Positions 1,426 to 60,368 of a stretch of 64,000 bases of DNA are shown here, one piece after another (within the stretch, counting starts at the first letter, position 1; every line of letters begins with the position of its first letter). The notes under the pieces are model-generated. The model saw nothing but the letters and a program-made list of their open reading frames with translations, did no database searches and was not told the DNA's origin. The position numbers were made by a program, and so were the translations under genes. This DNA is from Ginglymostoma cirratum (taxonomy: Eukaryota): assembly GCA_024137785.1 (NCBI GenBank), contig JAHRHZ010000067.1, forward strand, positions 4,311,281 through 4,375,280, written 5' to 3'.

Positions 1426-1431
1426 TGCTCT

Positions 1432-2055
1432 ACAACACCTTCCAGTCGCGAACTACTTCAACTCCCCCTCCCACTCCTTGGACGACATGTCCACCCTGGG
1501 CCTCCTCCAGTGTCACAATGACACCACCCGGAAATTGAAGGAACAGCACCTCATATTCCGCCTTGGGAGCCTACAACCCAATGGTCTCAATGTGGACTTT
1601 ACTAGCTTCAAAATCTCCCCACCCATGACCAACACTCCCTGTCATCCTCGCATCCTTGACCTGTCCGTCTTCACTCTCACCTTTCTGCTCCTGCCACCTC
1701 ACTGACCAACCCTCACCATTGCCCACCTGCACTCACCCATCACCATCCCACCTACTTCTCATCCCCGCCTCCTTGACTTGTCCATCTTCTCTCCCACCTC
1801 ACTAACCAACCCTCACCACTGCCTACCTGCACTCACCTATCACCACCTCACCTATCACCACCCCACCTACATTCCCCAGCCCCACCCCTCCTCTATTTAT
1901 TTCACAGCTCCCTACCCCTCCCCCATTTCTGAAGAAGGGTCCCAACCTGAAACGTCAGCTTTACTGTTCCTCTGATGCTGCCTCGTCTGCTGTGTTCCTC
2001 CAGCTCCACACTGTGTTATCTCAGACTCCAGCATCAGCAGTTCTTCCTATCTCTA
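1432..2055 (+). mobile_element. 5'-truncated Penelope-like retroelement (GIY-YIG C-terminus, 3' UTR/pLTR with hammerhead core)
   Basis: Encodes PVANYFNSPSHSLDDMSTLGLLQCHNDTTRKLKEQHLIFRLGSLQPNGLNVDF, resembling a PLE endonuclease end. A C-rich UTR follows, then CTGAAGAagggtcccaacctGAAACGTC at 1929-1956 and the tail ...ccagcatcagcagttc. Confidence 0.8.
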
Positions 2056-2349
2056 CTTCTAGGTATTGTCATTTTTTTCCCCAGTTGTTCAGTTGCACCT
2101 ATCAAAATGTGAGCCCTCAGGTTTGGCTTCATAAGAAAACAGTATTATCCTCACAAGTATTGCTTGTGCTCAATAGTATATTCTAATGCTGAATATGTTT
2201 CAATCCAAAAATTTCATTGTAGTAGCCATTGAATTTTCTTTCCTCATTCATACTCAATTTTTGAACTTCATCTCAAATTATTGATCTTGTGGTAGTGGGA
2301 CAAAATCTATAAGCTGCCATTCAGTAGTTCATACACCTAGACATTTAGC

Positions 2350-2510
2350 TATCAGGACAGTGGTAACACTGTTACTTCTGAGTTCAAGATGAAATGTTCA
2401 GGCCTCACTCTAGGACTTGAGCACAATAATGTAGGCTTACACTCCAGTACAGAACTGAGAGAGTACTGCATTGTTGGAGATGTGAACTTTTGGATGAGAT
2501 GTTAAATGCT
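2350..2510 (+). mobile_element. tRNA-derived DeuSINE (SacSINE-like) fragment
   Basis: gacttgagcacaataatgtaggcttacactccagtacagaactgagagagtactgcattgttggagatgtgaacttttggatgagatgttaaa resembles the shark SINE body and Deu domain as I recall it. Confidence 0.55.
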
Positions 2511-3393
2511 GTTTTTCAGTCTGTCCAGGAAGTTATTTGTAGGTGTTGCTGCCTGTTAGGTGTTTCAGTCATGATATCTCAGATGCAATCATACTGAAGG
2601 CAAGAAAATTCAGATCCTATTAGTCCTCCACGTCTATCTTGCAGTTAGTGCACTGACACTGACTCCAACCTTCTGGACTTCAAAGGCAGCATTTTCTCGT
2701 GTGATGACTTCTAAGTATCAGTCCAATGCTTTCTGGATTGCTCAGAAAGGAACTTTTCATGGTTTGATGACCCAAGGTACATAAGAGAATATTTGCTGAG
2801 TCACAACTAAATTGACAGGCTACGTGCGCGTTACTGTTGAGTTATGGATTGGCCTAACGACAAAACCCATTGTCTTTCACAGCCCTCTCTAATTTATATT
2901 TCTATACGGAAATATTCATGTGTTTGTTACAGCTACTATTTCTAGAGTGATTTCCAGGAGTATTACGAAGGGATTATTTTGATTCAGTCAACTAGCTTTT
3001 TCGTCACACAGATTGATTGGGTTAATCAGAGCAGTCCATGTTTAAAATACAAAACAAATTAAATAGGCAAAGCACTATGGCACAAAATCTCAAACAGATT
3101 TATAAAACTACACTACTATTTAATTTAATGTTGCTTTAAAATAGTAGGATTAAAAGAATGTAATACTTGTCTCTAGTGAGCTAATTTCTGGTTTCATGCT
3201 CCACTGGAGATCCTTACTGGAAATATGATTTCAACAATTCTGGCACGTTTAGATTGAAGATCTAAAACAAATTATATGCAACACACACCCAAATTTAATG
3301 TTGTGCACTCTTAGTGAAAGTTACGTGGTGGGAACACAAAATTGGAAAGATTCGAAAGGAACGGAAGAGAAAGATTCACCAAACTTCTAATAA

Positions 3394-3407
3394 CCAGCAG
3401 ATGGCGG
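3394..3407 (+). promoter_or_regulatory. Candidate CTCF binding site
   Basis: CCAGCAGATGGCGG matches the core consensus CCASYAGRKGGCRS, in otherwise AT-rich DNA. Confidence 0.4.
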
Positions 3408-4743
3408 CCTAGTCGCAGCAAAAGAGTGAATAGTCCTCAAACATATTGTTGACCTTTTTGAGTATTTACAGTGTTTCTGTTTAATTTCACATTCTGAATG
3501 TTTTTAATCGACTTTATAATTAATATGGGTCTTGATACCTGATACACTTCTTGTGGGTTCAGAGATCTCATACTGGATGATTAATTTTTAGCATAATTTA
3601 TTCCAGAATAAAAGCAAACAAAACTTTTAAGAATGACCTTTGATTCTATCTTTGGGTCCTTCCTATTCATTTACAATTGCCTCCTCAATAATAGTATCAG
3701 CAGATTTTTTTGTTGTTTCCTCGTTACAGTCAATTCACAGTTTAACATTTGGAGTAATTCTGGTATTTGAAACTGGGATACTAGCTAGGTGGCATGACCT
3801 GTGCAAAAACAGAAAGAGATATATTTTCCTCCTTGTCCACTGTGCAACCCCATTCCTCCATATGCCAAGTGACCAAAAAAAGTACATGGCACAGATATTT
3901 ACGGATAAATCACATCGTGCATCGTAACATTTATGTACCTCTGTACATGTACCCTGACTTATTGCTGGCACTTTCGCTGATTTCCTCAAAATTCAGAGAG
4001 TTGAGTACAATAAAGACTGACACTTCAGTGCAGACCTTTGAAAATATTGACTGAGACTTTGGAGCAGCAACAGAGTAAGGATGCTGAAGGGAACTATGGA
4101 TGGGCAATAAATGCTGGCCAGCCAGCACATCCAACAAAATGAATTTTTTAAAATGCTTATAACTGACTGTGACATAGGTTTTGTTGAGAAATCTTGTAAT
4201 GTCTCTGATGAAAATTACAGCTCCAGTTCCATTCAGTAGTGCAGCAACTGATTCAGCAATCTTTACTGGGCATTAACAACTTGAAGCAGCGGTGAAGTCA
4301 TCAGATGATCTAAACACCTGAAAATGTTAAAATATTTTCACAAATAATCTCATCCCTTAAATCAGAAACACAAAGCACTGAAATAAAAAGTTTTAGAGCA
4401 AATTACATATCGGCACATATAAGTGCGGTGAGGATAGAAGATAAAACATTCTAAATAAAATGTTTAATTTTAAGCTTTAGAAAAGAATTCACTTTATCAG
4501 TCCATGAATATAAAATTATTTTTTCTGAAATTCTGTACATCAAATTTTATTCATTTTTAAAAACTTAGTTACGTCTGATTGAACAAGATGTAACTTTTTA
4601 TAGATTTCTACTTAAATCATTCGAAGCAGAACCTTGGAGGGGTTGGGGTGATGCAGTGTGTATGTCACAGCCCATGTTGGAGCTCTAAGGGACAAACTGT
4701 AATCCTAGGATATCCTCATTAATCACATCTAACCTTGAGATTG

Positions 4744-4927
4744 AATTAGAGGAGTAGGAAAGTTGACTTTTCAGATCGGGACCCTTTTCCTGAAGAAGCC
4801 ATTGCTGAAGAAGGGTTCTGACCTGAAACGTCAACTTTCCTGCTCCTATGATGCTGCCTGGCCCACTGTGTTCCTCCACCTCCACGCTGTGTTATCTTTG
4901 ACTCCAGCATCTGCAGTTCTTGCGAGC
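4744..4927 (+). mobile_element. Short Penelope-derived hammerhead element with partial 5' inversion, 16-bp TSD
   Basis: TSD tctaaccttgagattg at 4728-4743 and 4928-4943. Core CTGAAGAagggttctgacctGAAACGTC at 4805-4832. Partial inverted copy at about 4750-4790. Confidence 0.85.
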
Positions 4928-5454
4928 TCTAACCTTGAGATTGCATCTGTTTCAGAGGGATGATCATTGCATAAAGTTCTAAAAGAGTTAATATGGAATG
5001 CCCTAAGCACCATCCGTTATGATGTCATATGGACTTGCAGGAAGAATGGGATCTCAAAACCTAATATCCAGGACAGAGAGTGTATTTATCATCAAAGTAA
5101 CCTGTAATTAGGTGCTAACATGTAATAAACTCCTACTTATTTAATACAAGAGCCTGTTTTAGTAAGACTAGTAAATTGTTTCTTCTACCACAGTCGACCA
5201 AACAGGCTCCGGAGTTCCCTTCGAGAATGGTAGCACTAAACATGCCAATTGGAGGCGTAGACTCTATTTGAGTGTACTTGCAACAAACTCTTAATTCCAT
5301 ATTAGTTGTATTGTGCAACTTATGAGCATTGATGTCGTGGACCGTATGAATAGCCACAGGAAGAATGGTTGTGTTTGTATACTTGTAATGTGTAAAATAA
5401 ATAAATATAAATGTGTTTAAAGATTGGCTTCTAGGTATTTTTTAATCAGCCTGC

Positions 5455-5550
5455 TCAAGGATGTTTTATGGCACATCTCTGGAGCAGGTGGGACTTGAAC
5501 TCATGGTTAAGAGTTAGGGGACACTGCCATTGCGCCATAAGTGCCCTCTT
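5455..5550 (-). mobile_element. Short tRNA-derived SINE (related copies at about 15290-15385 +, 43430-43530 -, 49640-49710 +)
   Basis: Shared B-box-like gttcaagtcccacc and ...gtgtccct... head. Confidence 0.55.
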
Positions 5551-6508
5551 GGCTTCGGTTCTACGCTACAGTACATGGCTTTCTGGAGGAGGAGAGCTGT
5601 TTAGCATTTATCCCACCAACATAATTAAAATTGTAGTTGGTTAATTTGCAGGTTCTTGCTAAGACTAGTCAGTGTCCAAAAGTACTTGAGGTACTTCTCT
5701 CAGTCAATTAATTTCTGGGGTCACGAAAAATGAAATAACTGCAAACATTTTGCAGAATCCATTGATAGCTTGAGGTACAATGCAGTTCACTCATATCTAG
5801 GTATGAATCAATACACATGTGCTCTTAAATTGCAATACACAGCTGGTGGTGAAAGGTCAATTTGTGATCACTTGTGAACACTAAACTAATTTTAAATTCT
5901 GTCCAGACCCTTGGAAACTGGAAACAAGATGGCAGCAGAGTGGGGCTCCTTAACCGGAGCTCGTCCACTCCAACCACTTTCCTTCTTTCTTTTCTCGTCT
6001 GTCTTGTTTTTGTTTTCTTTCCCTTACTTACTTCTTGTCCTGAGCTCGGATGGTAGCAGCAGCAGCAAGAGCCCAGCACGGACCTCGAGTGGGCCCAGCG
6101 CGAACGTCGAGTGAGCACTTTTCCAGGTCGAGCACAGGAGCTAGCATTTCAATCAGCAGTTGCTACATCGGTGGAGGAAACGTTGGTGAGGTAGGCCCCT
6201 GGGTGAAAGATTGCACCTGAGGATAAGCAGCTTAATCATTGGTTTGGTCCGGTGCTGGCAGCGGCAAAGTGGTGACGGAAGGGCATCACAGCAACACCAG
6301 CAAGATGGGCCCAGTGGCGAACGATGTGACTCGGACGTTGTTTGGTCTGGTGCAGGCTGCAGCGAGGTGCGGTGGAGAATTGGCCCAGCAGCAAGAACTA
6401 GCACCTGAGGCTCAGCGACTAGCATGTCGGTTGGGTCCGGAACAGATGGCAGCAAAAGCAGTGGGGGGCGGGGGATGGTGGCACAAAACTGGCTCAGGGC
6501 TGATGGAC

Positions 6509-6660
6509 ATAACACAGTGTGAAGCTGGAGGAACACAGCAGGCCAGGCAGCATCAGAGGAGCAGTAAAGTTGACGTTTCAGGTCGGGACCCCTCATCAGA
6601 AATCTGAATTTCAGACCTTGATGCCATGTCTGACTCCAGCATGGGCAGTTCTTACTATCT
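6509..6660. mobile_element. Short Penelope-derived hammerhead element (inverted 5' part)
   Basis: Imperfect TSD ctcagggctgatggac 6493-6508 / ctcaggactgagggac 6661-6676. Minus-strand core CTGATGAggggtcccgacctGAAACGTC at 6599-6572. Confidence 0.8.
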
Positions 6661-6692
6661 CTCAGGACTGAGGGACTCCCTTTAATCGATAT

Positions 6693-6900
6693 AAAAACCG
6701 AAAGAACTGCAGATGCTGTAAATCAGGAACAAAAACAGAAGTTACTGGAAATAATCAGCAGGTCTGGCAGCATCTATGAAGAAAAAAAATTAGAACTTGA
6801 GGAAGGGCCACCGGACCCTAAATGTTAACTCTGATTTGTTTTTTCTGCACAGATGCTGCCAGACCTGCTGAACTTTTCCAGCAACTTGTGTTTTTGTTCT
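6693..6900 (-). mobile_element. Fold-back Penelope-derived element (same subfamily as 56884-57103)
   Basis: Arms gaacaaaaacagaagttactggaaataatcagcaggtctggcagcatct / agatgctgccagacctgctgaacttttccagcaacttgtgtttttgttc. Decayed core tgaggaagggccaccggaccctaaatgtt. Confidence 0.8.
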
Positions 6901-7108
6901 CTTTCAGCTATATCTTTCTTTCCTTATTCTTAAATTATTCAAAATAGCGCCGAATCGTGGCGAAAAGTGAAAGCTTTTCACTGTATTCTTACTGTAAAAT
7001 ACACATGACAACAAAATCATTCAAGCCATGTTGGTGGGAAAGGGAGGGAGGGAGAACCATTTGCACAGCCAGTATTGGAGCAGTAAGGCGAGCAGGGGGC
7101 GGGATTAC

Positions 7109-7388: not shown

Positions 7389-10300
7389 GTGAGTAGCCCC
7401 CCCCGCCCTGTGTCTCACCCTCGGGGGATGGAGGGGGTGTGGATGGCTGATAACCGGAGGATCGGGGCTCTCCTCGGGCTTGTAGCTGCAGCGTTTACCA
7501 TGAGCCGGCAATTGAATCGGACTCGCGCTTGGGCGAGAAATTTGCTTCTCAATAAAAGCTCCTCTTCCAATCTCTTTTTTTTCCCCCGCCCCCACCAAAC
7601 ATCTAATGCTAAAAGAACATCCAGATGTCTTTGCCTGAAATAAATCTGTAGCCACAGTGATGTGCCGTGCTTTTTAATGTATGGATCACTGTTTCCGAGG
7701 CGACTTTCTCCCCCCGTCACCTTCCTTTTCTAAAACAAAACACAGCGTCTGAGAGCTCAGACTCGCAGATAAACCGTGCCAAGCCAACCTTTTTCAGACT
7801 GAATTTAATCCCTCTAGATCCTCGCTCCAACTCACTTGTCTGTGTGTGCCTCAAACTGGGGTGTCAGTGGAGGATTTGTGTTTAGTCAAGAGAATATGCC
7901 ACGTGTGTTGTGTATTAGCTCTCCCTCGCTTCTGATGGCCACCGAGCGAAGTGCAGGCAAGCTGTGTGACCTGAGCTGCAACAGACCCAGGCAAGGTTGG
8001 TTCATGTCAACTGGGACAACAAGGACCTCGGTTGAATTGGGCTGCTCGTCGAGAAGCGTCGTCCATCGTTTTAGTTGCTGGCCTTTTTAAACTTTTCGTT
8101 TTGCCCTTTCCTCTGGTGTCCGTAATATTTCAACAGCACCCCAAAACAAATCTTATAAGTCTGAGAAATGCAAAGTACCCTGAAAATGATCAGCAAGTCA
8201 GCCCATCACTGCGATAAGAAAAAAGTTTGTGCATTTCTTTAGACCTTTAGTGAGTACAGGATGTATCAAAGTTTCTTGTGGATGCAAACATCTAGCCACT
8301 AACGCTTCCTACCTTACTCCTGTGTCTGTATCTTTACTTTTGTCTGTGTGCAATTTTATGTAAGTCTTATTGTGAAATAAAATTACTGAAACACAAAAGC
8401 AGGAAAAAGCTGCAAAGACAGACGAGTAAATGCATGGGAGGAGGTTATATATGGTTTCTAGTATTTCTGTTTTATATTTCAGTATTTTGCCTCCATGAAA
8501 GAACTGTCGGGGAAAGCAGTCCAATTCTTAACAATTTCCTTAACTCACCAAAGTAAAATCTAGATGTAAAAGCACGTTTATCTAGCAGTTTCCTATTATG
8601 CAACCAGAGCACCACTCCAACACGTATTACACCAGGGTGGGTTGCTGAGGCATTAAAAGATTATATGAAAGGGGAAAGGAAATAAAAACACTCGCTGCAA
8701 ACTGGTGTCTTGTCCTGTTGTATTTCTTCTCCCCTTCCACCATGCCACATCTATCCAGTCAAAAAAACATGTTACTTCTAATTTTTGTCAAATGAGGGGC
8801 ATTTTTGTCTTCAGATTTTCTCTATTTCCTCCTAGAATTAATGTGAAAATATTTCAAAACCTTCCAAAAACTAATGCTCCATATGTCCAAAGAACCTTTT
8901 GAAAGTCACGTTCTTTACCTCTAGGTTTTTAAACAGCATTTTCCATTATTCCCCATAGCTTCATGCAAAAAAAAATTAAATCATGGAGTACTTCATATAT
9001 GCTGTGTACAAAAGCAAAATTCTGCCAATATCAGTAATCTGAGATTAAGAATGTGCTGGAAATTCTCAGCAGGTTAGGCAGCATCTGCGGGCATTGAAGT
9101 AGTTAGTGCTACAGGTCTCTAACGTTTCATGAGAACTGGAAAAGAAGTTACAAATTTTACTGGGATTTAAGCAAGTACATTGGTCAGGAAAGGAGATTAC
9201 AATGAAAGGGAAGTTCTTATAGTGTGGAATACAGGAGTGCTAAAATGATTGATCTTTTGGCATTTAATTATTCTTGCCTTCTGCCCAATTAACAAAGTTT
9301 TTTTTTCTGTTCTTTCCCTTTCCCCAATTTCCCCACCCCTCTACTTTCTGGCGTGTTGCATCTGTAACGTTTTCCATTTTTGTTGACAGATAATCAAACT
9401 AAAATCTTAATTTTCTCTCGCAACATCCTGCCTGACCGGCTGAGTACTTCTGGCATTTTCTTTTCCATGTCACGCACTTGTCTGTAATGACCCATTTCCT
9501 GATCGGAATCTCTATATAGGGAGCAAAAATGTTTGTATAAATAAAGTATATGCATATAATAGTGCTGTTACTAATCCAGTTGTCATGTTTCATGTTATGT
9601 TTCTCAATTTTTAAAAATTACTTTGAATCATTGTTTTAACACAAGACTCATGTATCTGATTTTTCATTGATGCTTTGAAATTATTTTATTCAAACTGTTG
9701 CTACCATTGCTGCATTGCTTTTCGTTGCCAGTACTGCAACCTAGTGTTGTACAGCTAAAAGTGTTTCTTTCAGAGACAAATCAAAGTTTGAAAAGCTAAC
9801 GTCCATATACAAGCTGCTGTGTGGTTTTCTTATGGTTGGTATGGCAATCTCATGTTCACGTTGAGAATTACCTAAAATATATGAGAAGTGGTTTGTAAGT
9901 AGTTGTTGGACTGGCTCTGATGGTTGCATAAAAATGTAGCAGTTCCACTGTTACAGATAGCACAAGGTGATTTGTTGTATGAATATTTACTGTAACATTA
10001 AATCTATGCATACTATTTGGAAATATCACTTGCTGAATTGCCTTGATCTGACTTTATTTCAGGTGACCCCTTTGATCAACCACCATGTCGTGGATGTTCC
10101 TCTTATCTAATGGAACCCTACATAAAGTGTGCAGACTGTGGACCTCCTCCACTACTTATATGTTTACAGGTACACTACCATTAATTGAGCTTATAAGAGA
10201 TTGAAGGTAATACATTTGTCTTCCATGCTTACATTTCATACCCTATGATTGCAGGGTTTGATTGCAGGTTCAGCAATAATCCTACGTGCAGATATTAAAG

Positions 10301-31300: not shown

Positions 31301-34300
31301 TATGGATTTACCTTCTTGTATATTTGCTGTTCCGCAGGTTTTTGCAGCTGGCCGGTTGCCTGGAACTGAAAGTTGCAGCAATTACTCTCTGCTTTTCACA
31401 TTACTTTTTTGTTGAAAGATCTAAAAATATTTGAGCAATATTAAAATTAATATTTTTGATACAGGAATTTGACAATTACGCAGAATGGGATTTGAGGGAT
31501 ATTGATTTTGTAGAAGATGACTCTGATATTTTGCATGGTAAGTTCTTTGATTGATAAAATTCTTTCGTTAGCCTTGTAAACCCCATCAAACAGTATTCCT
31601 TCTTGCAAATAGAATCTTCTAATTCTGCTTTGTACAAAGCAAACTGCTAGTTGCTGTCCATTATGATAACATGCTGTTGTAAGGTAGTCATTTTGTCTAA
31701 GTTAGTCCAGAAATCTTTTGTGTTACTGTTGGATTTAATTTGCAGGCCCCCTGTATTACAAACAAAATGTGTATGGTTACTGAAGAATTATGAAAATGGT
31801 GATGTTTCTTTGCATCAGAGCCATTTACTGGTCACCGAGTATAATTTCCCCTTATGGTGATGCAGTGTGATGTAATGCCAATCCAACACATCTGCTTTGT
31901 GACTCCTTATCCTAGAGCATATTGAAATGGCTTTACCCAAAAATGTCTTTAATGAAAACTGCATAGAAGGCAGCATTTCACTGTTGATGTCATCTGTTGG
32001 TTTATTTTGTAATTCAGTGTTTCATTCTTCATCTGATAATTAGATGTTGGTATTTCCTTAGGTAACCCCTGCATCATTTTAATATTTTTTGCACGTTGTT
32101 TGAACAGCTTTGAAACTTGCAGTAGTTGATATCTATTATTCCAGATTAAAAGAGAGACAACGAAGAAAAAAGTAAGTTACTCCTGATTTTTTTAAAATTA
32201 GTTTTCATACGCAGTTCGCTTTTCTGTTTTCTTTTAACTCTGAAAATAAGTTGCTGTTTCATATCCCTCGGTTTATTTCTGATGAAGGGTCTAGGCCCGA
32301 AACGTCAAGCTTTCCTGCTCCTATGATGCTGCTTGGCCTGCTGTGTTCATCCAGCTCCACACCTTGTTATCTCGGATTCTCCAGCATCTGCAGTACCTAT
32401 TATCCCTCATAGGGAAGTCTTGCTAGGTTAGGTTTTCCAGTAATGTAAACATGTAAACTAACCATGATAGTTTACCACAACTGTGGTATAGCCACAGTCT
32501 TCATTATCTACCAAAGCCATTAAATGTTTATAACAGAAACGGAAACAGAGGTCCTTTGACTTAGAATTAATCATTCTAGACAGAAAGATAACAAGCTGTA
32601 AAATTGATTTCTAGTCCATGAAAGCCCGAGTCGACTTTACAGTGTTGACAACAAGAATTTGATGTTTTATCTTTTCATTTTACTGTCTACAGTTAAATCA
32701 CATTTAACATTTTTGAAAAGTAAATTGTTGAGTAATTGGTGGCAGTGTGTTTGTCAAAATGAACAAAACAGCTTGTGCTGCAGTTAACTAATTTTATTTT
32801 TCTACCAGTGTCACCTCCCTATCTATGTCCACCAACTGCTTGCAACCTACTTCTGAATTGCATCATTTAGAAATAAATATGTGGCTTCAGGACATTCCAG
32901 ATTACTTAAGAGCAAATTAAGTGTGTCTGAAATATTGTAATATACATGAAAATATTTGAAGGGATGGCCAACACTGATCAAATGTGATGCACTCTACCTA
33001 TATTGTTCCATCTGGTTTAATGCTTTGTACTGCTGTTTTCTCAATGTGAAATTAGTGCACTTAATTCCTGAACTTCTCCTCCAGTATGCTCAGAACTGAC
33101 ATTTTCAGAGCATCCACATAAACAGTTACGTGGTGTCATTTGGTTTTAACAATAGCCGTATCCTGCTGCATGACATTTAAACATAACATAAACTGATTTC
33201 TGGAGATTATTTTTCCCAAGCAGCAAATTGTATTCTGCTTGAAATTCATGGGACTCAGTTTGGAATGTTGCATGGGATTACTTAATAGCTGTGGAATAGG
33301 CTATCCATTTTCTGTTCAAATCATCAGATGATCTGTCCTCATACCCCACCTCCCCAAGCAGTGTAGTAAAGTTAATATCTCTATACAGCGCCACCTTGCT
33401 ATGTTATAGCTGTAAGAATCTGTATTTCTCCACCCTATGATTCAACACAGCTGCAGAACATTCTAACACTATACAAAGGCCAATTTTCATATAAGGTCGC
33501 TTGTGGTGTATTTGAATTGACTCAAATATCAGTGAAATAGTGAGATTTGTTTACATCCATATTTTCCCACCCTTGTAATCCTTTGTGATGCAGTGTTACT
33601 GTCTTAATGTATTCAGCTTATTTTTAATAGTTATAAATGTTATAAAGGACACTTCCATCATTAAAACCTATGATACTATGTATTCATCTAGAAGTGATCT
33701 GATTTACCCAATAATTTAGAAAATAATTTGTGACAGGAGAATCTTACTCTCTCCACAGAATTTTGAGAGACCACGGCCTGATCAACCTCAGAAAATTTCA
33801 AAGTAAGTATGAACCATGTCTAGTATGCCAAAGGAACGCAAGTTTGTAATGGTACAGGTCTCGCTGGGAGTTGTCATGCAGAACTGAACCTTTTCAAAGG
33901 TTTCCTTCTTCAGACCGTGTAATATAATATTAATTACAGGTGTCTACGCTGTCAGTGCAGAAGCATATCAAGTGTTAGTGATGCACTTACTGCTGCTGCT
34001 AAGTATTTTCTTGCTTCTAGTAGATTGTGATGGATTTAAGTTTTTGAGCCCAACTTGTGAATGCATATTCTATGCAGTGTACTTTGTATTATGTTGCATT
34101 ATTAATTGTACTTAAAGGAATAATTCCATTATTGTGTGGAAAATTAGTGTGCAAATTTGCACTGAAATAAAGTTGTCAAATTTATTGCAGCCTGATCCTT
34201 TTATGCATACCTCTATTTATCCTTTGACCTGATAATTCCTGTAGACATAGACCTGGCAAGAAGGGCTGTAGCTTTAAACATTTGCTTTCAAAGGCCATTT

Positions 34301-37300
34301 TACATGTTTTTGAAGTAAGTAAGGCATATGAAATGTTAGCTTTATAACCAACATGCAAATTCTGTAAAATTGCATTATACTATCTGCTTCTGACTTTTTA
34401 AGTTGCTGCCTTTGCTTTGCATATTTTATTTTGCATCAGCCTGAAGAAATAATAGCAGATTTACTGGAAATGTAAATCTTCAGGACATCAACAAATAGCT
34501 AATCTGTACCTATCTCTCAATTACTTAGATGATTAGCAGCCACTTTATAGTTACTACTAGTGCCACGTGTATGGAACTGAGATTATCATGTCTAAACTAC
34601 TACTGATTACTACTTTAACCGATGTCAGTGAATTGTACCACCAAACTGGTAAAATAGCAGTAATTATTTGCACCATCCAACATTTCAATTAATATTGTAC
34701 AGAAGTGCTTACTATTTTGATGTTGTATCACTTAGAGGGATTGGACTATAACTTTATATGTAACTACCCGATGAATTTACAAAGGTCTCTCTTAAGTCAA
34801 ACTTCCATATTCAAAGCAGTGGGTTTGCAATTTGAAGAACATTTGTAGTTGGTTTTGAAGTAGTCATTCGGATGAGCGTTTTTTTGTAGTCTGTCTGTGT
34901 TCTGTCCTACCTTATCCCACCTGCTGCTGAAATTCTCATCAGTAACTATTCCTATACAGTTTCTGGTCAGCTTTTCATCCTGCACAGTCTGAACAACAGT
35001 TCATTAAAATTTCTACTACCCATATCCTGTGGTACACCAAGGTCCGTTCACCCATCTCTCCTATTTTTGCTGACCTGTATTTTTTTCTCCACGCTCCAAC
35101 ACTTTCAATTAAAATGGCTTTTCTATTCCTAGTTCTGTAGCTTCCGTCAGCCCTAAGACCCCCTCCACCTTACCATTTGTCAGCTGTGTCTTCGGTCCTT
35201 CCCCCAGTTTCCGCTGCCTATCTACCTTCCTTTTCCTTAAAACCCATCACTTTGACCAAGATTTTGGTCACCCCTTCCAGTATCTGATTCTTTGACTTGG
35301 CACTTATTCTGTTTTGACTATGCACTTGAAACACGTTAAGACATTTTTCTATATTAAAGGTGCTGTATAAACATAAATTATTGAGCACGAGCCAATCATT
35401 AGACCACTTTCCCATTTTATCCCGATTTGGTTACATTCATTAATTTAACTCTTCAATAATAAAGTGTGCAAACAGGGAAGCTGAAGCATACACAGATTTT
35501 AGTGGTACTGATGTCAGTAGTAATGAGAGAGGAATACAAGTGTTTGGTAATCAATTGAAATGAGAATTCTTTTTTTTGAAAGCCAGTAATGGTGCTCAAG
35601 CTTTATGTAAGTCGTGTGTTAGGAGAGTGAGTCGCTGAGCTAAAAATGGTTTAGAAGCTATTGTCAATAGAAAGCCAGCACAATACAAATTGGATATCAG
35701 TTTTCTTTTCACATTCCGTCACTGTGATTTTTAGAGTATTTAGTCTTTTGTATATTTTAAAAGTATATATACTTTTAAAAATTAGAAATAAATACATAGC
35801 TGGGTCAGCTGCTGTAAAGAAGAGACAAGGGCTGACATAGGGGTGTGTACCCTTCAGAATGTCATATCCTGTCTTTCTGTTTACAGATGTTGATTGAACA
35901 ATACATAATTAATGTAATTAATACTCACCTAGGTTCCTACTTGGCTTTCGCTCACTCAGTAACAGCAGAAACTGAGATCAGATTAAATTAAAAACAACAA
36001 ACAGATAAATTACAGTTCATTAGCATTGCAATAAGATGAACGTTGCAGTTACACCTCAGTGCAAACCCGATCACTTTCAGGATTCGGTATTGCTCTGCAG
36101 CAATGAATTCAAGTTGCAGGATCCTCTCTACATTGTAACATTTAAGTACCAGAAAAAATCCTAAAACTATCAGAAAATAATGATAAACATATTTAAAATA
36201 AATTGGGAAAATTGTATATAATAGAAAACTGTGTTGAATTTCATTGCCAATTTTAAAAGATTCTAATTGCTTCCCGTGAATTTATTTCCTATCTGATATA
36301 ATTGGAGAATGTCAGTTTATTCATTTAAAGAACTTCGTGCTTTAACATTAGAATTCAAGATTATCTAGTTGACTCAGTATTTAATGAAGTGTAATGTAAA
36401 TATGAGCATATTCAGGTCTGAGTTGAAGAATCTCTTAATGTTATTGTTGGATGGAATAAGAAAGATCCTATTGAGAATGGGAGAGTGAAGTCAAAGAGAG
36501 ACAGTGTTGACTAGAATTAGGGTAAAAATGCATTGATGGGCAAATGGTGGGTTGGGAGAAGTGGGGAGAGAGAGATAGAAAGAGAGAAGGTCCTTTGTGG
36601 GTGGATTGCAACAGTTTCCATATGACCATTGTATGGCAGAGCCTGACATCAATACCTATAGTTCTAAATGTTACCAACCATGTTGCTGCTTGTCTTAGCC
36701 TTGTAGTGAAAATCTTTTGAATAAAGGACATCTGTGAGAAATGGTATCAAGAGCGCAAGACATGTATGATTAGATGTGATAGAAAGAAAACAATTAAAAG
36801 CATTTGAAGCTGAAAAAGGAGATAACAAGGTGTAGAGCTGGTTGAACACGGCAGGCCAAGCAGCATCGGAGGAGCAGGAAAGCTGACGTGTTCATCCAAC
36901 TCTACACCTTGTTATCTCAGATTCCCCAGCATCTGCAGTTCCTACCATCTCTGAAACTGAAAAAAGGCAGAAGCAAAGTTTCTGATTTGTACAGCCAGAG
37001 AAAGAAAAAAAAATAATCTTTAGACAAAGAGAGAGAAGACCGGGGAGAAAGTTACACTAGGAGAAATTAATTTTGTTTATAAATTGCCCTTGATCAGAGT
37101 GAAAAGTCATGAAGTAGTATTAAAAAAATTTTTTGCTTAGTAATAATTCATTCAACAATTAATTTGCTATCTAAACTGCTGACAGTTCACTGAACCCATT
37201 GAAACCCGTTAATGGTATATCACTGCCATGAGTCTCTATCCAGGAAATGCGCCGTTGGAATGTCTAGAAATTATAAGTGCATGACAACAAACAAAAGCAT

Positions 37301-53300: not shown

Positions 53301-55250
53301 TCCATCTCCTGGTTTATTTTCTGCCCCACATCCTGACTACTGCTAGGAGGCATGTACATAATTCCCATCAGGGTCTTTCTTCCTTTGTGGTTCCTCAACT
53401 CTACCCACACAAACTCTATGCTTTCCAACCCTATATCACTTCTTGCTATCGGTTTAATTTCAGCTCTCATTCACAAGACCATCCTGCCTCCATTGCCCAC
53501 CTGCCTATTCTTTCAATTGGATGAATATCCTGGGATATTTAGTTCCCATTCCTGATCCCCTTGCAGCCATGACTTTGTGATACCCACAGCATCATATCTG
53601 CCAATTTAAATCTGCATGACATTTACCTTGTTTTGTAGACTGCATGCATTCAAATAAAACATATTCAATCCTGCAGTGACTGCCCACTTCTCACAGTAGT
53701 CCCCTTACTTGTTGTGCCTGAAGATAGAATTCTAACTCTTCATATTCTCTGACCTATTACTTGTTCTGGAAACTTTAATAACCTCTGCTGAGCTGTCCCC
53801 ACACACACTCCCCTTTAACTTCCATAATTTTCCACTAAACTGAACCCACACACGCTAGTTTGCTCACAGCCCTCTCCACGGCCCTAGTTATGTGATTCAG
53901 CACGGCTCAGTTGGAGCCCAACCTATCGGAACAGCTCCCTCCTTCCCCAGCACTGCTGCCAATGTCCCTTGAATTTGAACCCGTTTCTCCCACATCAATC
54001 TCTGAGCCATGCATTTACCTCTTTAATTTTGTTGACCCTGTGCCACTTTGCTTGTGGCTCAGATAGTAATTCAGCAATTACAAAGTGTGGAGCTAGAGGA
54101 ACACAGCAGGCCAGGCAGCATCAGAGGAACAGGAAAGCTGACGTTTCAGGTCAGGACCCTTTTTCAGAAATCTTTGTTATCTCTGACTTCAGTATCTGCA
54201 GTTCTTGCTATCTCAATTCAGCAATTACTACCTTTTTTGCTCTGCTTTCTAATTTAGCCCCCTAGCTGCTCATATTCCCTCAGCAGAACCTCCTGCCTGT
54301 TTTTACCTATAGCACTAGTACCTATGCGGACCACAAAAACTAGATCTTTCCCCTCCCGCTCCCAAGTTCCTCTACAGCCCAGCCTTCAGGACACTCGATA
54401 CTGGCTACACAGAACAATGTCTATTCCCCTGACTTATACCATCCCCAATTACAACTATATTTCTCTTTTCTGCTCCCCCACTTGAATGGCTCTCTGTACC
54501 ATGGAGATATGGTCAGTTTGCTCATCCTCCCTACAGTCCCCACTCTCATCCACACCAGGAGCAAAAAGCTCAAACCTGTTAGGCAAGCTTAAGGGCTGAG
54601 GTTCCTTCAATCCTATCCCTGGATCCCTGGATCTGCCTCACTGGTGGTCACACCCTCCTGACCACTGACCGAATTCAAGCAAGTTAATCTAAGAAGTGTG
54701 ACTGCCTCCTAAGATGCAACATCCGGGTAACTCTCCCCCTCCCTGATGTGTTGCAGACTCCAGCTCATCAACTCCGAGCTGAAGTTCCTCAAGCAACCAA
54801 CACTTGCTACAACTGTGGCCACTATGAGCTTACATGGGGTCCGTCAGCTCCCACATCATGAAATTTCAACACATCACCTGGCCCAGCATTTCTATTTTAA
54901 TTAATTAGAATTTAATTTGATTTTTAAAAATTTCAGACCGGTCTTTTATTTTGTAGCCTGTAAATGTTTCTTCTAATTACCTTCAGTCTAGAAGCAACTT
55001 ATAATAGATAGTCGAATTAGCAGCTATCACCAACCATTGAACTTAAGGTTTATCTGTGATGTCATTTTTTTGAGCTGGGCCTCTAATCCTGGGTTTCAAT
55101 TTATCCTGTTAAAAAAAAACCTTGCAAACTATGAGACAAAAAAGCAAATAAAAACACCTCTTTCTCACCGCACCGAATTTCTATGTTGCCTCCAAATTCC
55201 CCAAGCTATATATTTATTTGGGCTGTGTCTCACTCCGGATGTGATCTTTC
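50330..55250 (-). mobile_element. Near full-length decayed CR1 LINE (ORF1 start about 54889, endonuclease, RT, 3' end), preceded by a separate CR1 3' end, with nested inserts
   Basis: ORF1-like MLGQVMC*NFMMWELTD...CSKCWLLEELQLGVDELES. Endonuclease ESIEFVWVELRNHKGRKTLMGIMYMPP. RT KSLRPDALHPRVLKE and MEYNVGKHYIMHFG. Nested + strand CR1 at about 52540-52860 and PLE insert at 54082-54214. Confidence 0.88.
54082..54214. mobile_element. Short Penelope-derived hammerhead element, 14-bp TSD
   Basis: TSD aattcagcaattac at 54068-54081 and 54215-54228. Minus-strand core CTGAAAAagggtcctgacctGAAACGTC (G8 mutated) at 54167-54140. Confidence 0.85.
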
Positions 55251-56883
55251 CTTCTTGATCTTGTCAGGCTTAATTACAAAGGGTTGGGCAGGAACTTTGG
55301 AACAAATAAATCTAAGATATTGTGGAAAAAAGACACTGTCAAACCCCATACTCCTCAGTTAAACATAAGGCTTTATTTAAATTTAAACCAAACATATTGA
55401 CTCTTCTTGCATATAATATTAGGTAATGTTCCCCTCACACTTGTATTTCTTTTGAATGTCCTGATGAATATAAAATTAAAAGTTCGACAAAATATCTTTT
55501 TGTTTTCAGCAATACTCAAGTTTGTACGATTGTAAAATTAAAGTGTTATGACCATATATGCACCTTGTTTGGGTGGGACTAAATTAATTTTTAAAAATAC
55601 CATTCTCGCTTCAAGTGTTGTTCTTTTTAGCCATTCCTAAATGAAGGCCAGGCAGAATAAATTGAATACCGTCAATGGGATAAGGAAACCTCTCACTGTT
55701 AAACTCCACTCATTCTACAGAATTTTCCACATATGATGATCTCACCTCTTACTGCCAGCACAAGAGACTCGTCCTGTTATAATGTACAATATGTACTGTA
55801 GCAATATATAATGCAGCTTCTTTAAGACTTTTTAAACACTCATGGTCGAAACTCATTTACTTTTCCAGAAATCTTTTCAAAATTTTTCAAACCTTAGTCA
55901 AATATTCTCTCAGTTTGCATCAGGCCATGCATGAAATAAGCAGCACCTTGCCCTTTTTATTCTTGCTACACAGATAATTAAGATTTGCTTTGTCTTCCAG
56001 GTTGGAAGGAGGGTAATCTGTTGTTGGGAGGGGGGAGAAACAAAGTTTAATTTTCTTTTCCCATTTGTTCCTCTGCCATATTAAGAGAACAATGCTTTAG
56101 CATAGGTTAGGTGACAAAGTAGGTTAGGAAACAAACTCACTGGGAAATATTTTCCACAGGACCTGTCTCTAAAGGTTAACACATATCTAGGGTGTAGCGG
56201 TGTTCTTGCTTGCAAGAAAGAAAGCATTTGTCTTTTTTGAGTTCAATATCCATAGTTAGAAGCAAGTGAAATGGGAAATGTCTGACTTGACTTTCATAAA
56301 GAAAGCTGTAGGTGTTGTGGGGTGAATGCCCCTAATACTGGTGCACTTCCCCACGATAGGGGTAAATTAATGGAAGGAAAATACCTTGGAGTTACACAAC
56401 CGCTCTGCAGATGGTGAACTAGTGTAGCTGATAAAAGAAGTTTGCAATGCAAGGGTCAAAACTAAAACATGTCTCCAATTCAAAGAAAGCATTCTGTTTT
56501 GGATGTTGATATTTTAAGCAACTTACTGTTTGTCTCTGAAACAGTGTGTTCTTTTCATTGTGTCTGGACTGTTTAATAATTTCCAGACGTTTAATTAGTT
56601 TGAAGAGATGCTTTTTTTGTGAATACAGCTAATTGTTCAAATCATGTTAATCCAGCAATAATTCTCCTGGGTCTAGAAACTGAACACACATTTTGCAAAG
56701 CTTTTGATGACACTGGAACCAGTAGATCCATCAAAGTATTTTCAACAGGAGGATCCTGTCCACTATTAAACTTCCAGAATAACTAGTAAATGAAATCTTC
56801 AAATGAAACATGTACAAATTCAACTGAAGGACACATAAATCAGACTTTGAAATGATTGACAGACTAATAACATATATTCAACA

Positions 56884-57103
56884 TGAACAAAAACAAAGTT
56901 TCTGGAAAAGCTCAGCAGGTCTGGCAGCATCTGTGGAGGAGAAAAACCGAGTTAACGTTTCGGGTCCGGTGACCCTTCCTCAGAACCGGACCTGAAACGT
57001 TAACTCTGTTTTCTCCTCTACAGATGCTGCCAGACCTGCTGAGCTTTTCCAGCAACTTTGTTTTTGTTCCTGATTTACAGCATCCGCAGTTCTTTTGGTT
57101 TTT
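56884..57103 (+). mobile_element. Young fold-back Penelope-derived element with hammerhead core
   Basis: About 85-bp inverted arms at 56885-56970 and 56985-57069. TSD atatattcaaca 56872-56883 / atatattcgaca 57104-57115. Minus-strand core CTGAGGAagggtcaccggacccGAAACGTT at 56983-56954. Confidence 0.88.
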
Positions 57104-58699
57104 ATATATTCGACAAGGTTCACTCTAGGCGGTAATTGCAGACTTTTTTTATGGATGCATGTTGTTGGTCAATGTATTAATTTTCATGAGCAAAGCTTCA
57201 ATCCTACAAAACTCAGTGTGGAGTAGAACAGTATCTGCACTATATTGAAGCCACAAAAGGAGTGTTGTCAGCATTCCAGAAAAGCCAGTTGTTTGCCCCT
57301 TTTCCAAATGAGGAATCAAAACACAGATTCCAGAAAGTTGACACAATTATGAAAGCCAATTCTTGGTTCAGATGACTCAATTACCAGTACTGAGGCATAT
57401 CACTGCCATCTGGAATAAAAACAGAAAACATATGAAATAAAGAGTAGATCAACTTTATCTGTGGAGAGGGAAGCAGTTAATATTACAGGTCATTGGCCTT
57501 CCATAGTCAATCTATCCAGTGTCATTGACCTGAAGCCTGTTTCCCTATTGATCGATACTGCTTGATCTGCGTAGGCCCAACGTTTTCTGTTACCAATTCG
57601 ATCTAATTTGGTTTAGACCATGCACCTTACAGTGAAGTTGCTCATGATAGAAGTCAAAGGAAAACATTTCTTTTTTGTGATTTTGAGTCCCTGTTTTGTA
57701 TGTTATACATTCTTTATAGCACCCCCAGAAATACTGTCTGTCATCCAAATACCAACAGACGCAAATTACTGCTGATAAGCAGTTTGATATTCCTCAACTG
57801 GGTGTTACCAGATGGAGTCATAGAGTCATGGAATAGCACAGCACAGAAGGAGATCATTCAGCCTGTCATGTCTATGCCCACAATTTTGAAGAGCGACCCT
57901 GTTAGTCTTGTCTCCCACTGTTTCCCCAATTCCTCCTCCTATATTAATTCAGTTCACTTTTTACAGCTACAATTTAAACTTTGACCACCACTAGCAGCCA
58001 ATGCTTATTTGTCTCAAACACTTATTGCATAACAGATTTTTCCGCATCACACCTTTAGTACTTTCATCATTTGACTTAAATCATTGTCCTCAGGCCATCG
58101 CCCTTTCAACCACTGGAAACAGTTCCTCTCACTCCACCTAAACCCTTCATGATTTTAAACTTCTCTATTAGACCTCCTCTTAGACTTCACCATTCTAAGG
58201 AGTATAGTCTCAGCTTCTCCACTTAACTCTAGCCCTCACCCATGGAATCATTCCAGTAAATTCTTTTCTCTATCCTCTCCAAAGCTTTTACATACTTTCT
58301 AAAATGTAGTGCCAACGTCTTCGATCAAGTTGGACGTAACTTGCTGCCTTTTGTCGTCTTCACCTACAAGAAGTAAGTCAAGTGTGCCATGCTGAGTTAT
58401 GTTATCCTGTCACATCCAGCTACAACATGTATCACATATCTCTGTTCTTATACCTCTTTAAAATGGTACTTTTTTGTCCCTCAGATTCATTAACTTTTCC
58501 TTATTGAGAGATGCTTCAGGTCTAAGCCTACATTTAAAATTCACAGAGTAAATTTTATCTGTGCTTCACCCAGTGCAACAGATGAACTAGAGTAACTAAA
58601 TTCCAGCTTCTCTTTATGGGAATGTAAATCAGGGTGACATCATTTAAAATATTAATATCACCTTTAGACTTTTCTTTACTCTCTGGAATCCACGCATAA

Positions 58700-59000
58700 A
58701 GTAACAAGGGTCTTTTCCCTCGGGTGGGGGAGTTCAAAACTAGGGGGCATATTTTTAAAGCAAGAGGAGAAAGATTTAAAAAGGACATGAAAGGCAACTT
58801 TTTTACAGAGATTGGTTTGTGTGTGAAATGAACTTCCAGAGGAAATGATGGATGCAAATACAGTTACAATGTTTAAAAGACATTTGGATAAGTTCATGAA
58901 CAGGAAAGGTTTGGAGAGATATGGACTAGGTGCAGGTAGATGGGAGTAGTTTAGTTTGGAAACATGGTCACTGTGGACTGGTTGGGTCGAAGAGTCTGTA
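58700..59000 (+). mobile_element. CR1 LINE 3' end
   Basis: ggagaaagatttaaaaaggacatgaaaggcaactttttt...ggactggttgggtcgaagagtctg. Confidence 0.8.
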
Positions 59001-59002
59001 TC

Positions 59003-59530
59003 CATAGAAACATAGAAAATGGTGCAGGAGTAGGCCACATGGCCCTTCGAGCCTGCAACACCATTGAATATGATGATGGCTGATCATGCAATTTCAGTAT
59101 CCAAATCCCGCTTTCTCTCCAGACCCCTTGATCCCTTTACTAGCAAGGGCCACATCCAGCTCCATCTTGAACATGTCTAACAAACTGGCCCTAATAGCTT
59201 TCTGTGGTAGAGAATTCCACAGGTCACAACTCTGAGTGAAGAAATTCCTCCTCATCTCAATCTTGAATGCCTTACCTCTTATTCTTAGACTGTGACTCAT
59301 AGTTCTGGACTTCCCCAACACTCTTCCCACATCTATGCTGTCCAGTCCCATCAGGACTTTATGTGTTTCTGTGGGATACCCTTCATTCTTCTAAATTCCA
59401 GCGAGTACAGGCCCAGTTAATCCAGGATAACAAGCGTGGGGCTGGATGAACACAGCAGGTCAAGCAGCATCATAGGAGCAGGAAAACTTGACGTTTCGGG
59501 CCTAAACCCCATCCAGTCCTTCTTTGCACG
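59003..59530 (-). mobile_element. CR1 LINE 3' end with (catagaaa)n tail, interrupted by a PLE-derived insert at 59426-59510 (6-bp TSD atccag)
   Basis: ORF GKAFKIEMRRNFFTQSCDLWNSLPQ. The insert carries gacgtttcgggcctaaaccc, a truncated hammerhead on the minus strand. Confidence 0.8.
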
Positions 59531-60120
59531 GTGTACAACTTAATGACTCAATAAATACTTTCTGTTAATAAGAACATTTACACTAGTCATCTGTAACTTA
59601 CCTTTCTTGTGCACTTTTTAAAAATGCCAGTAATGCTTATTTGCTTGCAAGATCCAACGTTGCTTTGCAGAATATGCAGTCAGATGGGAGAGGGCTTGAA
59701 TGAACTTGCTCATTGATTCATTAACCTTTTCATTGTTGAGAAACATTTCAGCTCTGTGTGTATTTTGAAGTGGCATCCCCAAAGTTTCCTATGAACCTCT
59801 TAACATCTCCTTTCCAAAGCAGAACAAGAAATGTATATAGATTGAAAGAATTCTAATTAAAGAAATATATTCGTTTTTTCTGCTACTTAGATATGCAAGC
59901 AACAAGAGATAGATAAATGTGCAACTTAATTAATTTTCTATCATAACCTTCTGCCCTGCCAATACTTATCAATGTTTTTACTCTCAATTACTTGCTTATT
60001 CTATCATTATGTCCTATACACACTTCAAGTTTCCACAATTACTTCGTGTAATTACTTCCTCCAAATAGGTTTTCTGTTAAGTTGTTGTGGAAATAAGTGG
60101 GCAAAAATATCAGTTATCTG

Positions 60121-60368
60121 AGAAACAGAAATTCCTGGAGAAACTCAGCAGGGCTGGCAGCATCTGTGGAGAGAAAGCATAGTCAATATTTCGAATCCAG
60201 TGACCCTTCTTCAGAACTGAAGTTCTGAACTCCAGTTCCGAAGAAGGGTCGCTGGACTCGAAATGTTTAACCCTGTTTTTCTCTCCACTGCTGCTGCCAG
60301 ACTGACTGAGTTTCTCCAGCAATTTCTGTTTCTGTTTCAGATTTCCAGCATCCTCAGTTCTTTGCTTT
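60121..60368 (+). mobile_element. Fold-back Penelope-derived element with two divergent, decayed hammerhead cores
   Basis: Arms gaaacagaaattcctggagaaactcagcagggctggcagc / gctgccagactgactgagtttctccagcaatttctgtttc. Cores CTGAAGAagggtcactggattcGAAATATT (-) and CCGAAGAagggtcgctggactcGAAATGTT (+). Confidence 0.8.

What the first reader, a model, noticed from the sequence alone, without database searches (positions are those of the whole stretch)
1929..60368. Dispersed family of tiny, often fold-back, hammerhead-ribozyme-bearing retroelements
Seen in sequence: at least nine related inserts: 1432-2055, 4744-4927, 6509-6660, 6693-6900, 32270-32400, 36820-36950, 54082-54214, 56884-57103, 59426-59510 and 60121-60368, plus older relics near 9010, 28910, 35780, 57415 and 62290. 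Most share CTGAnGA-(A/G)-GGGT..stem II..-GAAACGT(C/T) and a common 3' end (...cagcatc(t/c)gcagttc...). Several have 6-16 bp target-site duplications. Established: this is the hammerhead catalytic core, and Penelope-like elements (PLEs) carry minimal hammerheads whose stem III is a short palindrome (here ACGU) thought to pair in dimers. Inference: these are either non-coding elements that are little more than ribozyme plus terminal repeat, mobilised in trans by a PLE, or extreme 5'-truncation products of one. Two subfamilies differ in stem II and cleavage triplet (GUC vs GUU). Roughly one copy per 5 kb would make this a very abundant ribozyme-motif family if the density holds genome-wide.
Basis: partly seen in the sequence, partly recalled or inferred. 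Interest (0 to 1): 0.78.

Follow-up and report, generated by a model that had tools for sequence, protein, structure and literature searches.

The report
Penelope leader copies inserted back-to-back
These short repeats, about one every 5 kb, are end-pieces of known Penelope-type jumping genes in a likely shark genome; most short copies start at one spot just before a small ribozyme motif, likely the capped start of the element's RNA, and the hairpin-shaped ones were likely copied from two separate RNA molecules, which hints at how this poorly understood family inserts itself.

Summary
Real. All ten named inserts and two of five relics are terminal units (pLTR) of Neptune-type Penelope-like elements carrying minimal hammerheads. 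Young full-length elements (1,049-codon RT + GIY-YIG frame) exist in this genome. One tight motif has 55,078 matches (control 0); density is about one insert per 4.7 kb.

The inserts are neither random stumps nor mainly a separate family. In 92 young arms, 37 begin 1-6 nt before the CUGA box and 1 in the 13 nt upstream; full-length elements begin there too. The site follows a TATA-like box and initiator and often carries an extra G (12/14 vs 7/41), so it is likely the capped RNA start. Fold-backs pair one short end with one tailed end (20/20). Arms overlap and differ at subfamily-marking sites (10/82 vs 38/1,738), which suggests two RNA templates.

Stems co-vary between families. No sharp pile-up at the cleavage site was found, and cleavage is untested. 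Six of ten window inserts keep a full core.

This is a known kind of element with useful mechanistic detail. The scan found these families and the fixed start before, in this and other genomes.

The parts
1398..2054 (+). 5'-truncated family-A1 Penelope copy: 38-bp inverted piece (1398-1435), end of GIY-YIG frame, 3' UTR, terminal unit with tail (-526..+125; C3 of the hammerhead = position 0)
   Evidence: (63% aa to full-length frame residues 950-1043)
1894..1900 (+). TATA-like box TATTTAT, 31 nt before the inferred RNA start
   Evidence: same spacing in family A2, TATAAA in family B; promoter function inferred
1923..1929 (+). Initiator-like CCATTTC; inferred starts at 1924/1925, which are also the 5' strand of hammerhead stem I
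   Evidence: initiator consensus recalled
1925..1960 (+). Minimal hammerhead, core intact, GUC triplet, stem II closing pair decayed to G-U
4744..4927 (.). A1 fold-back: minus arm -2..+47, plus arm -6..+125; 16-bp TSD at 4728/4928; core at 4805 intact but stem I 5' strand lost
6509..6660 (.). A1 fold-back: minus arm -4..+94 (core intact at 6599), plus arm is the tail +85..+126; 16-bp TSD with 2 mismatches at 6493/6661
6690..6899 (.). Family-B fold-back: tailed minus arm from +44, short plus arm +1..+98; core broken; no TSD found
9048..9458 (.). Old head-to-head relic: minus arm 9048-9138 and plus arm 9401-9458
   Evidence: E 1e-6 and 0.007
28921..28997 (-). Old single-arm relic
   Evidence: E 2e-4
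32275..32408 (+). Young family-A2 solo unit, -4..+126, hammerhead fully intact; 8-bp TSD at 32262/32401
36819..36952 (.). Family-A fold-back without CUGA box: minus arm about +23..+93, plus arm +58..+125; 15-bp TSD with 2 mismatches
54082..54214 (.). A1 fold-back: minus arm -4..+86 (G8 changed to A), plus arm is the tail +82..+124; 14-bp TSD at 54068/54215
56882..57104 (.). Family-B fold-back: minus arm -3..+101 with fully intact GUU hammerhead (56983), tailed plus arm +13..+133; TSD 8 bp exact, 14 bp with 2 mismatches
59422..59509 (-). Young A2 single short arm, +8..about +95, no CUGA box; no convincing TSD
60121..60368 (.). B-related fold-back with both arms starting at the inferred RNA start (-6 and -5); minus-arm core intact with AUAU palindrome, plus-arm core broken

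Best explanation
The inserts are solo and back-to-back copies of the first 95-135 nt of Penelope-like (Neptune-type) elements, likely made when the element's reverse transcriptase starts inside the 5' leader of its own capped RNA and runs off the front end. Steps. (1) Shown: autonomous elements with the same terminal unit exist. (2) Shown: short and full-length copies share a sharp 5' edge 3-6 nt before the hammerhead CUGA box, about 30 nt after a TATA-like box, often with an extra G. Inferred: this is a capped Pol II start driven by the 3' end of an upstream tandem copy, so the 5' strand of hammerhead stem I is the first 4 nt of the RNA. (3) Shown: 3' ends fall in two clusters about 35 nt apart. 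Inferred: these are the two internal RT start sites shown in vitro for the anole element. (4) Shown: fold-backs pair one short with one tailed arm inside one 13-19 bp TSD, and the arms overlap and sometimes carry different subfamily alleles. Inferred: both strands of the staggered cut are extended, one from each site, often on two different RNAs, and the cDNAs are joined head to head. (5) Inferred: short copies lack the TATA box and are mostly dead ends. The hammerhead was selected in the master elements, decays in the copies, and would cleave only as a dimer or with protein help.
For: Full-length frame with RVT_1 and GIY-YIG above Pfam cut-offs. Family B also has its own ORF (58.6% aa). Of 25 ORF-start loci, 8 begin at -3..-6 and 2 carry an inverted arm ending there; 6 extend upstream as partial tandems. 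Of 92 readable arms picked only for not extending to -21/-20, 37 start at -6..-1 and 1 at -19..-7. Extra G in 12/14 at -5/-4 vs 7/41 downstream, p=7.5e-6; an overlapping set gave 17/25 vs 22/103. An extra G marks mRNA caps in full-length L1 insertions (PMC11702581, passage). Family B 5' ends also cluster at -6..-1 (by eye). 3' ends: 58 at +80..100, 33 at +124..137, none between, one longer. Pairs: 20/20 short/tail, 19/20 with TSD. Arms overlap by 10 nt or more in 39/40 pairs. Arms differ at 10/82 non-CpG diagnostic sites vs 38/1,738 elsewhere, p=3e-5; two pairs show linked switches. Anole PLE extends both strands from two internal sites and is predicted to be a dimer (PMC11167929).
Against: No RNA 5' end was observed: the poly(A) run is unstranded and showed no pile-up of starts, and 87% of laid reads run on into unrelated sequence. 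24 of 33 informative pairs show no allele difference, and mismatch is lower than under random pairing (19/144 vs 50 expected), so one RNA used twice or later gene conversion remains possible. 54 of 92 arms begin downstream of the edge (+1..+38). The commonest edge class (-3, 15 arms) mostly has extra T, not G. One complex seam recurs at four loci, which a pure by-product model does not predict. Sampling for searches covers only the first two contigs and one young subfamily.
Confidence: 0.75

Rival explanations
1. Fold-backs come from one template: self-priming or snap-back on a single RNA or cDNA (as proposed for rotifer PLEs), or L1-type twin priming, with later conversion explaining arm differences. 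The rest of the best explanation is unchanged.
For: 24 of 33 informative pairs have matching alleles. Some seams sit on the AAGCTT palindrome. Window inserts 6509 and 54082 have nearly non-overlapping arms (5-10 nt overlap). PMC3846280 (passages) argues for self-priming on an antisense template.
Against: Most arms overlap by 20-100 nt, and 3 of 20 pairs have both arms reaching the RNA start, unlike L1 twin priming with 1-10 bp overlaps (PMC11702581, passage). Both outer ends sit at the two fixed 3' sites. Arm mismatches are about fivefold enriched at subfamily sites.
Confidence: 0.14
2. A separate non-autonomous (SINE- or retrozyme-like) family of short ribozyme elements is transcribed on its own and mobilised in trans.
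For: Fixed 5' and 3' ends and own TSDs. One 44-nt complex seam occurs at four separate loci on three contigs, three of them with their own readable TSD. PLE-derived non-autonomous retrozymes exist in vertebrates (bioRxiv 2026.07.22.740005).
Against: The same start is used by ORF-bearing elements. Short copies carry the same alleles as the young full-length unit and lack the TATA box. Of 16 seams listed, most occur once. Copies are dispersed, not tandem. Many tailed ends run a few bases into the ORF start.
Confidence: 0.06
3. The inserts are extreme random 5' truncations of copies primed at the 3' terminal unit.
For: About 45% of young arms do extend upstream, with scattered 5' ends. Window insert 1398-2054 is of this kind.
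Against: 37 arms in 6 nt vs 1 arm in the 13 nt upstream, plus the extra G.
Confidence: 0.03
4. Hammerhead self-cleavage makes the 5' ends of the short copies.
For: A step at the scissile bond in family A2: 1,010 matches for junctions at +28 (27 of 30 checked are true junctions) vs 253 at +27. By eye, 40 of 100 junctions fall at +28..37 vs 15 at +16..27. Two of 25 full-length loci start at +28.
Against: The main edge is about 32 nt upstream of the cleavage site. Only 4 of 100 junctions are at +28 and the hump centres on +33..37 (by eye); 1 of 92. The +29 control is confounded by another subfamily. Family B shows no hump at its own site (1 of 100 listed). No read ends there. As a minor class I give it about 0.25.
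Confidence: 0.02

Closest known systems
Insertions of endonuclease-bearing Penelope-like elements, Neptune clade (PMC8557442, PMC3846280, PMC2377424)
   Same: Single RT + GIY-YIG frame, Zn-finger-like linker, partial tandems, inverted 5'-truncated copy, 30-40 bp tail at one end only, TSDs, solo pLTRs, transcription from the upstream copy's 3' end.
   Different: Here about half of young arms are reduced to the leader alone, with a sharp start and extra G. The promoter looks TATA/initiator-type and upstream, whereas the D. virilis promoter is described as internal and TATA-less. Those papers ascribe solo pLTRs to recombination or deletion, and inversions to self-priming.
Minimal type I hammerheads of metazoan PLEs (Cervera and De la Pena 2014, PMC4209133)
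   Same: CUGANGA and GAAA boxes, extra base between 9 and 10.1, G10.1-C11.1, palindromic 15.2-16.2, short helix I, mostly single dispersed motifs.
   Different: Helix II is 4-5 bp. At least 55,078 exact motifs against 4,000-9,000 reported for coelacanth and Xenopus. The short helix I is explained here by the RNA likely starting there.
Poseidon of Anolis carolinensis, PAc (PMC11167929)
   Same: Two adjacent internal RT start sites bounding the tail; both strands extended; hammerhead near the ORF start.
   Different: Different clade. That work is in vitro and does not, in the parts read, describe head-to-head products from two RNAs or a capped start at the ribozyme.
Non-LTR retrozymes of vertebrates (bioRxiv 10.64898/2026.07.22.740005)
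   Same: Non-coding, hammerhead-bearing, pLTR-related.
   Different: Retrozymes are defined by head-to-tail arrays; these are dispersed singles or head-to-head pairs with TSDs.
LINE-1 twin priming and cap-derived G (PMC11702581)
   Same: Both DNA ends prime; TSD preserved; extra G at full-length 5' junctions.
   Different: L1 arms come from one RNA and barely overlap; here arms overlap widely and start at two fixed sites.

Membership tests
EN+ Penelope-like element | One ORF with RT and C-terminal GIY-YIG endonuclease linked to this terminal unit | tested here: met
   L068, 1,049 codons; RVT_1 32.6 bits and GIY-YIG 23.4 bits, both above cut-off; window 1367-1648 matches its C-terminus
EN+ Penelope-like element | pLTRs from partial tandems; inverted 5' copy | tested here: met
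EN+ Penelope-like element | 30-40 bp tail at one end only | tested here: met
   20 of 20 pairs short/tail; clusters near +93 and +127
EN+ Penelope-like element | Target-site duplication | tested here: met
   19 of 20 pairs and 24 of 67 singles; 6 of 10 window inserts
EN+ Penelope-like element | Retained spliceosomal intron (some PLEs) | not tested
   No spliced joint among the 15 joints shown; not pursued
Neptune clade | CX2-5CxxC Zn-finger-like linker between RT and EN | tested here: met
   C-x4-C-x2-C read directly in the L068 translation; motif as given in PMC8557442. Nematis shares it
Neptune clade | RT phylogeny groups with Neptune | not tested
   No reference RT set was available; Repbase and Dfam could not be searched
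Minimal type I hammerhead | Core boxes, bulge, G10.1-C11.1, palindromic helix III, NUH | tested here: met
   175 distinct motifs in fetched DNA; 6 of 10 window inserts keep the core
Minimal type I hammerhead | Covariation in stems I and II | tested here: met
   Between families only: pair 2.3-1.3 is U-G in A2 and G-C in B; 2.1-1.1 and 2.2-1.2 become A-U and C-G in a third family (4 copies). Family A1 has a U-C mismatch at 2.3-1.3. Few independent lineages; no formal statistic
Minimal type I hammerhead | Self-cleavage as a dimer | not testable with these tools
   Monomer folds form stem II only; genomic footprint inconclusive
Rfam hammerhead families | Covariance-model hit | tested here: not met
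   No hammerhead family at E<=5; the motif lacks helix III and loop 1
Non-LTR retrozyme | Head-to-tail arrays of hammerhead-bearing units | tested here: not met
   Window copies are dispersed or head-to-head; arrays elsewhere in the genome were not searched
Independent non-autonomous family | Own boundaries and diagnostic sequence distinct from the autonomous partner | tested here: not met
   Start shared with full-length elements; one recurrent seam is an exception

The most novel reading that the evidence does not exclude
The Penelope protein works as a dimer carrying two capped RNAs whose very first nucleotides form the hammerheads. The ACGU palindromes would pair the two RNA 5' ends, giving the ribozyme its dimer partner in trans and holding the two cDNA ends together. 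This would explain head-to-head fold-backs, the one-sided tail and protein-assisted cleavage at once, with cleavage acting as self-decapping of a 32-nt leader. Roughly a million genomic copies would be a record of it.
Probability: 0.2. Interest if true: 0.78.

Novelty: new member of a known kind. Interest (0 to 1): 0.42.

Why it matters
How PLEs make inverted pLTRs, solo pLTRs and one-sided tails is an open question; published proposals include self-priming on antisense RNA and endonuclease-mediated resolution. This genome gives tens of thousands of near-identical young junctions. They point to a capped start at the ribozyme's first base pair and to two RNA templates per insertion, both testable with the existing in vitro PLE assay. 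It is also one of the densest ribozyme-motif families among the papers read. The element class itself is known, and most copies are decayed by-products.

Tried and rejected
Rfam scan: only chance miRNA-hairpin hits.

Pfam on the 58-aa window peptide: nothing; longer pieces were needed.

In vivo cleavage footprint: suggested by two loci, then tested with five pattern counts. No sharp peak was found, the +29 control was confounded, and family B did not replicate it, so it is not claimed.

Monomer folding: z-scores -1.2 to +0.3, stem II only, uninformative.

RNA: no listed holder is on record as RNA. Two raw-read runs under the same species label were laid; one gave 32,667 unstranded reads without start or end pile-ups, the other 9 reads.

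A 'fold-back of a fold-back' reading of doubled seams was dropped, because the doubles flank runs of N and may be assembly effects.

Relics at 35780, 57415 and 62290 were not detected.

Lunse et al. 2017 could not be opened and is known only through the review passage. The held supplements of PMC11167929 contained none of five terms, so its Fig. S2 coverage plots were not seen and may already show the 5' edge.
Full report
Numbering: C3 of the hammerhead (the C of CTGA) is position 0. Expected cleavage is between +27 and +28 in family A, and between +29 and +30 in family B.

OBSERVATION. The ten named inserts are present. A profile trained on other loci finds their arms and two relics (9050 with a partner at 9401; 28921); the reversed window gives nothing below E=2, and relics at 35780, 57415 and 62290 are not found. 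Seven inserts are head-to-head pairs. Six have clear TSDs. Eight of 17 arms start at -6..-2. Six inserts keep the whole catalytic core, but only 32279 and 56983 match the young form. Rfam reports no hammerhead.

IDENTITY. The genome is 4.36 Gb, and the closest proteins are from a shark and rays, so a cartilaginous fish is inferred. Insert 1398-2054 encodes the end of a GIY-YIG domain. A protein search and 20 fetched regions gave young copies 97-99% alike with variable 5' truncation. L068 has a 1,049-codon frame with RVT_1 and GIY-YIG above Pfam cut-offs and a C-x4-C-x2-C linker, the Neptune/Nematis mark given in PMC8557442 (passages). No RT tree was built. Family B has its own ORF, 58.6% identical over 288 residues.

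ABUNDANCE. One tight motif has 55,078 exact matches; the reversed control has 0. Sixty evenly spaced 10-kb stretches held 65 clusters in 302,525 readable bases, one per 4.7 kb. That extrapolates to about 0.9 million insertions if the readable half is representative.

5' ENDS. Of 25 loci chosen for the ORF start, 8 begin at -3..-6, 2 carry an inverted arm ending at -3/-4, 6 extend upstream, 2 begin at +28, 4 begin later, and 3 are unreadable upstream. For one young subfamily, 16,663 arms lack the upstream CC at -21/-20 and 22,690 have it, 91 of the first 100 truly extending (by eye). So roughly half begin inside the terminal unit (inference). I fetched 90 loci for the first listed sites. Of 92 readable arms, 1 starts at -19..-7, 37 at -6..-1, 27 at +1..9, 13 at +10..15, 2 at +16..27, 10 at +28..37, 1 at +38, and 1 is a longer copy with an internal deletion. 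A G precedes 12 of 14 starts at -5/-4 against 7 of 41 downstream starts (p=7.5e-6). The 15 starts at -3 mostly have extra T instead. An extra G is the mark of a copied mRNA cap in L1 (PMC11702581, passage). A TATA-like box lies about 30 nt upstream and an initiator-like motif (consensus recalled) covers the site in A1, A2 and B. Family B arms also cluster at -6..-1 (by eye). I infer a capped Pol II start, driven by the 3' end of an upstream tandem copy as described for Penelope (PMC2377424, passages). RNA data did not show it.

3' ENDS AND FOLD-BACKS. 3' ends are bimodal: 58 at +80..100, 33 at +124..137, none between, one at +264. This matches the tail and the two internal RT start sites of the anole element, which extends both strands (PMC11167929, main text parts 1-2). 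All 20 pairs in this sample join one short and one tailed arm; 19 have a TSD, 18 of them 13-19 bp. Over all loci, 40 pairs were found (two loci counted twice across N runs): 37 short/tail, and 39 overlapping by 10 nt or more. In the 37 pairs without N at an outer end, arms differ at 10 of 82 non-CpG subfamily sites against 38 of 1,738 other sites (p=3e-5). Nine of 33 informative pairs differ, two by linked changes. Twenty-four do not differ, and the rate is below random pairing. Two RNA templates per insertion is the simplest reading; later gene conversion is not excluded.

RIBOZYME. The motif has the features of the PLE minimal hammerhead (PMC4209133, parts 1-2 read). Among 175 motifs, stem I pair 2.3-1.3 is U-G in A2 and G-C in B, and a third family has A-U and C-G where A and B have U-A. 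A1 has a mismatch at 2.3-1.3. The stem I 5' strand coincides with the inferred first four nucleotides of the RNA. Cleavage would remove a 32-nt capped leader (inference). A genomic footprint was sought: 1,010 junction matches at +28 vs 253 at +27 (27 of 30 checked were true junctions, about 6 on a palindrome). But only 4 of 100 listed junctions were at +28, with a hump at +33..37 (by eye); the +29 control was confounded; and family B showed none. It is not established. Published activity of such motifs is low, dimer-dependent or protein-assisted (PMC4209133; PMC11167929; PMC6765202, passages), and 8 of 9 frog retrozyme dimers did not cleave (bioRxiv 2026.07.22.740005, parts 1-3).

AGAINST A PURE BY-PRODUCT MODEL. 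One 44-nt seam occurs five times at four loci on three contigs, three with their own readable TSD. This may be a stereotyped RT error or rare re-mobilisation of a fold-back unit.

NOVELTY. Inverted pLTRs, one-sided tails, solo pLTRs and dispersed minimal hammerheads are published (PMC8557442, PMC3846280, passages). Searches listed no paper whose title or opening abstract describes a cap-marked start at the PLE hammerhead or two-template head-to-head insertion. Subscription papers, Repbase, Dfam and the anole paper's supplementary figures were not seen. Earlier scan notes report the same families and fixed start; they are unchecked notes and are not counted as support.

VERDICT. New member of a known kind; interest 0.42, for the mechanistic read-out rather than the element.

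Noticed in passing
L311-L315 (G000 C1, C77, C218): An identical 44-nt seam (both arms ending in six T, with a 10-nt inverted piece between) occurs at four independent insertions; a second seam is shared by L110 and L113.
   Followed up: partly
L035:3103, L161:4954, L171:3480 and 3167: A third minimal-hammerhead family with an 18-nt stem II region and A-U/C-G stem I pairs; not seen in the window; its ORF was not sought.
   Followed up: no
window 57004-57026 (family B, about +33..+54): A pyrimidine tract followed by CAG then ATG, with a branch-point-like TTAAC at the cleavage site; looks like a 3' splice site (consensus recalled).
   Followed up: no
L098:1380-1421 and window 32282: In family A2 the hammerhead core CUGAUGA holds an AUG 7-8 nt from the inferred cap that opens a 14-codon upstream frame; the first in-frame ATG of the long ORF is at about +166.
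   Followed up: no
L098 joint 1783 to 1372 in run X15: 45 RNA reads join ORF sequence to position -5 with a single G between, probably one transcribed genomic junction carrying the extra G.
   Followed up: no
window 1398-1435: A 38-bp inverted piece contiguous with the 5' end of the long copy, an L1-like inversion without overlap.
   Followed up: partly
window 1183-1399 and 62717-63360: Tandem repeats with 31-nt and 13-nt units.
   Followed up: no
window 17981-19561 and 51094-53071; 24338-24817, 29435-29914, 58702-58811: Old dispersed repeats 70-89% alike whose translations resemble CR1/L2-type LINE proteins (resemblance recalled, not tested).
   Followed up: no
window 21349-21867, minus strand: A broken frame resembling an LTR-retrotransposon gag (recalled, not tested).
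   Followed up: no
window 6001-8000: G+C rises to 51% against about 39% around it; possibly a CpG-island-like region.
   Followed up: no
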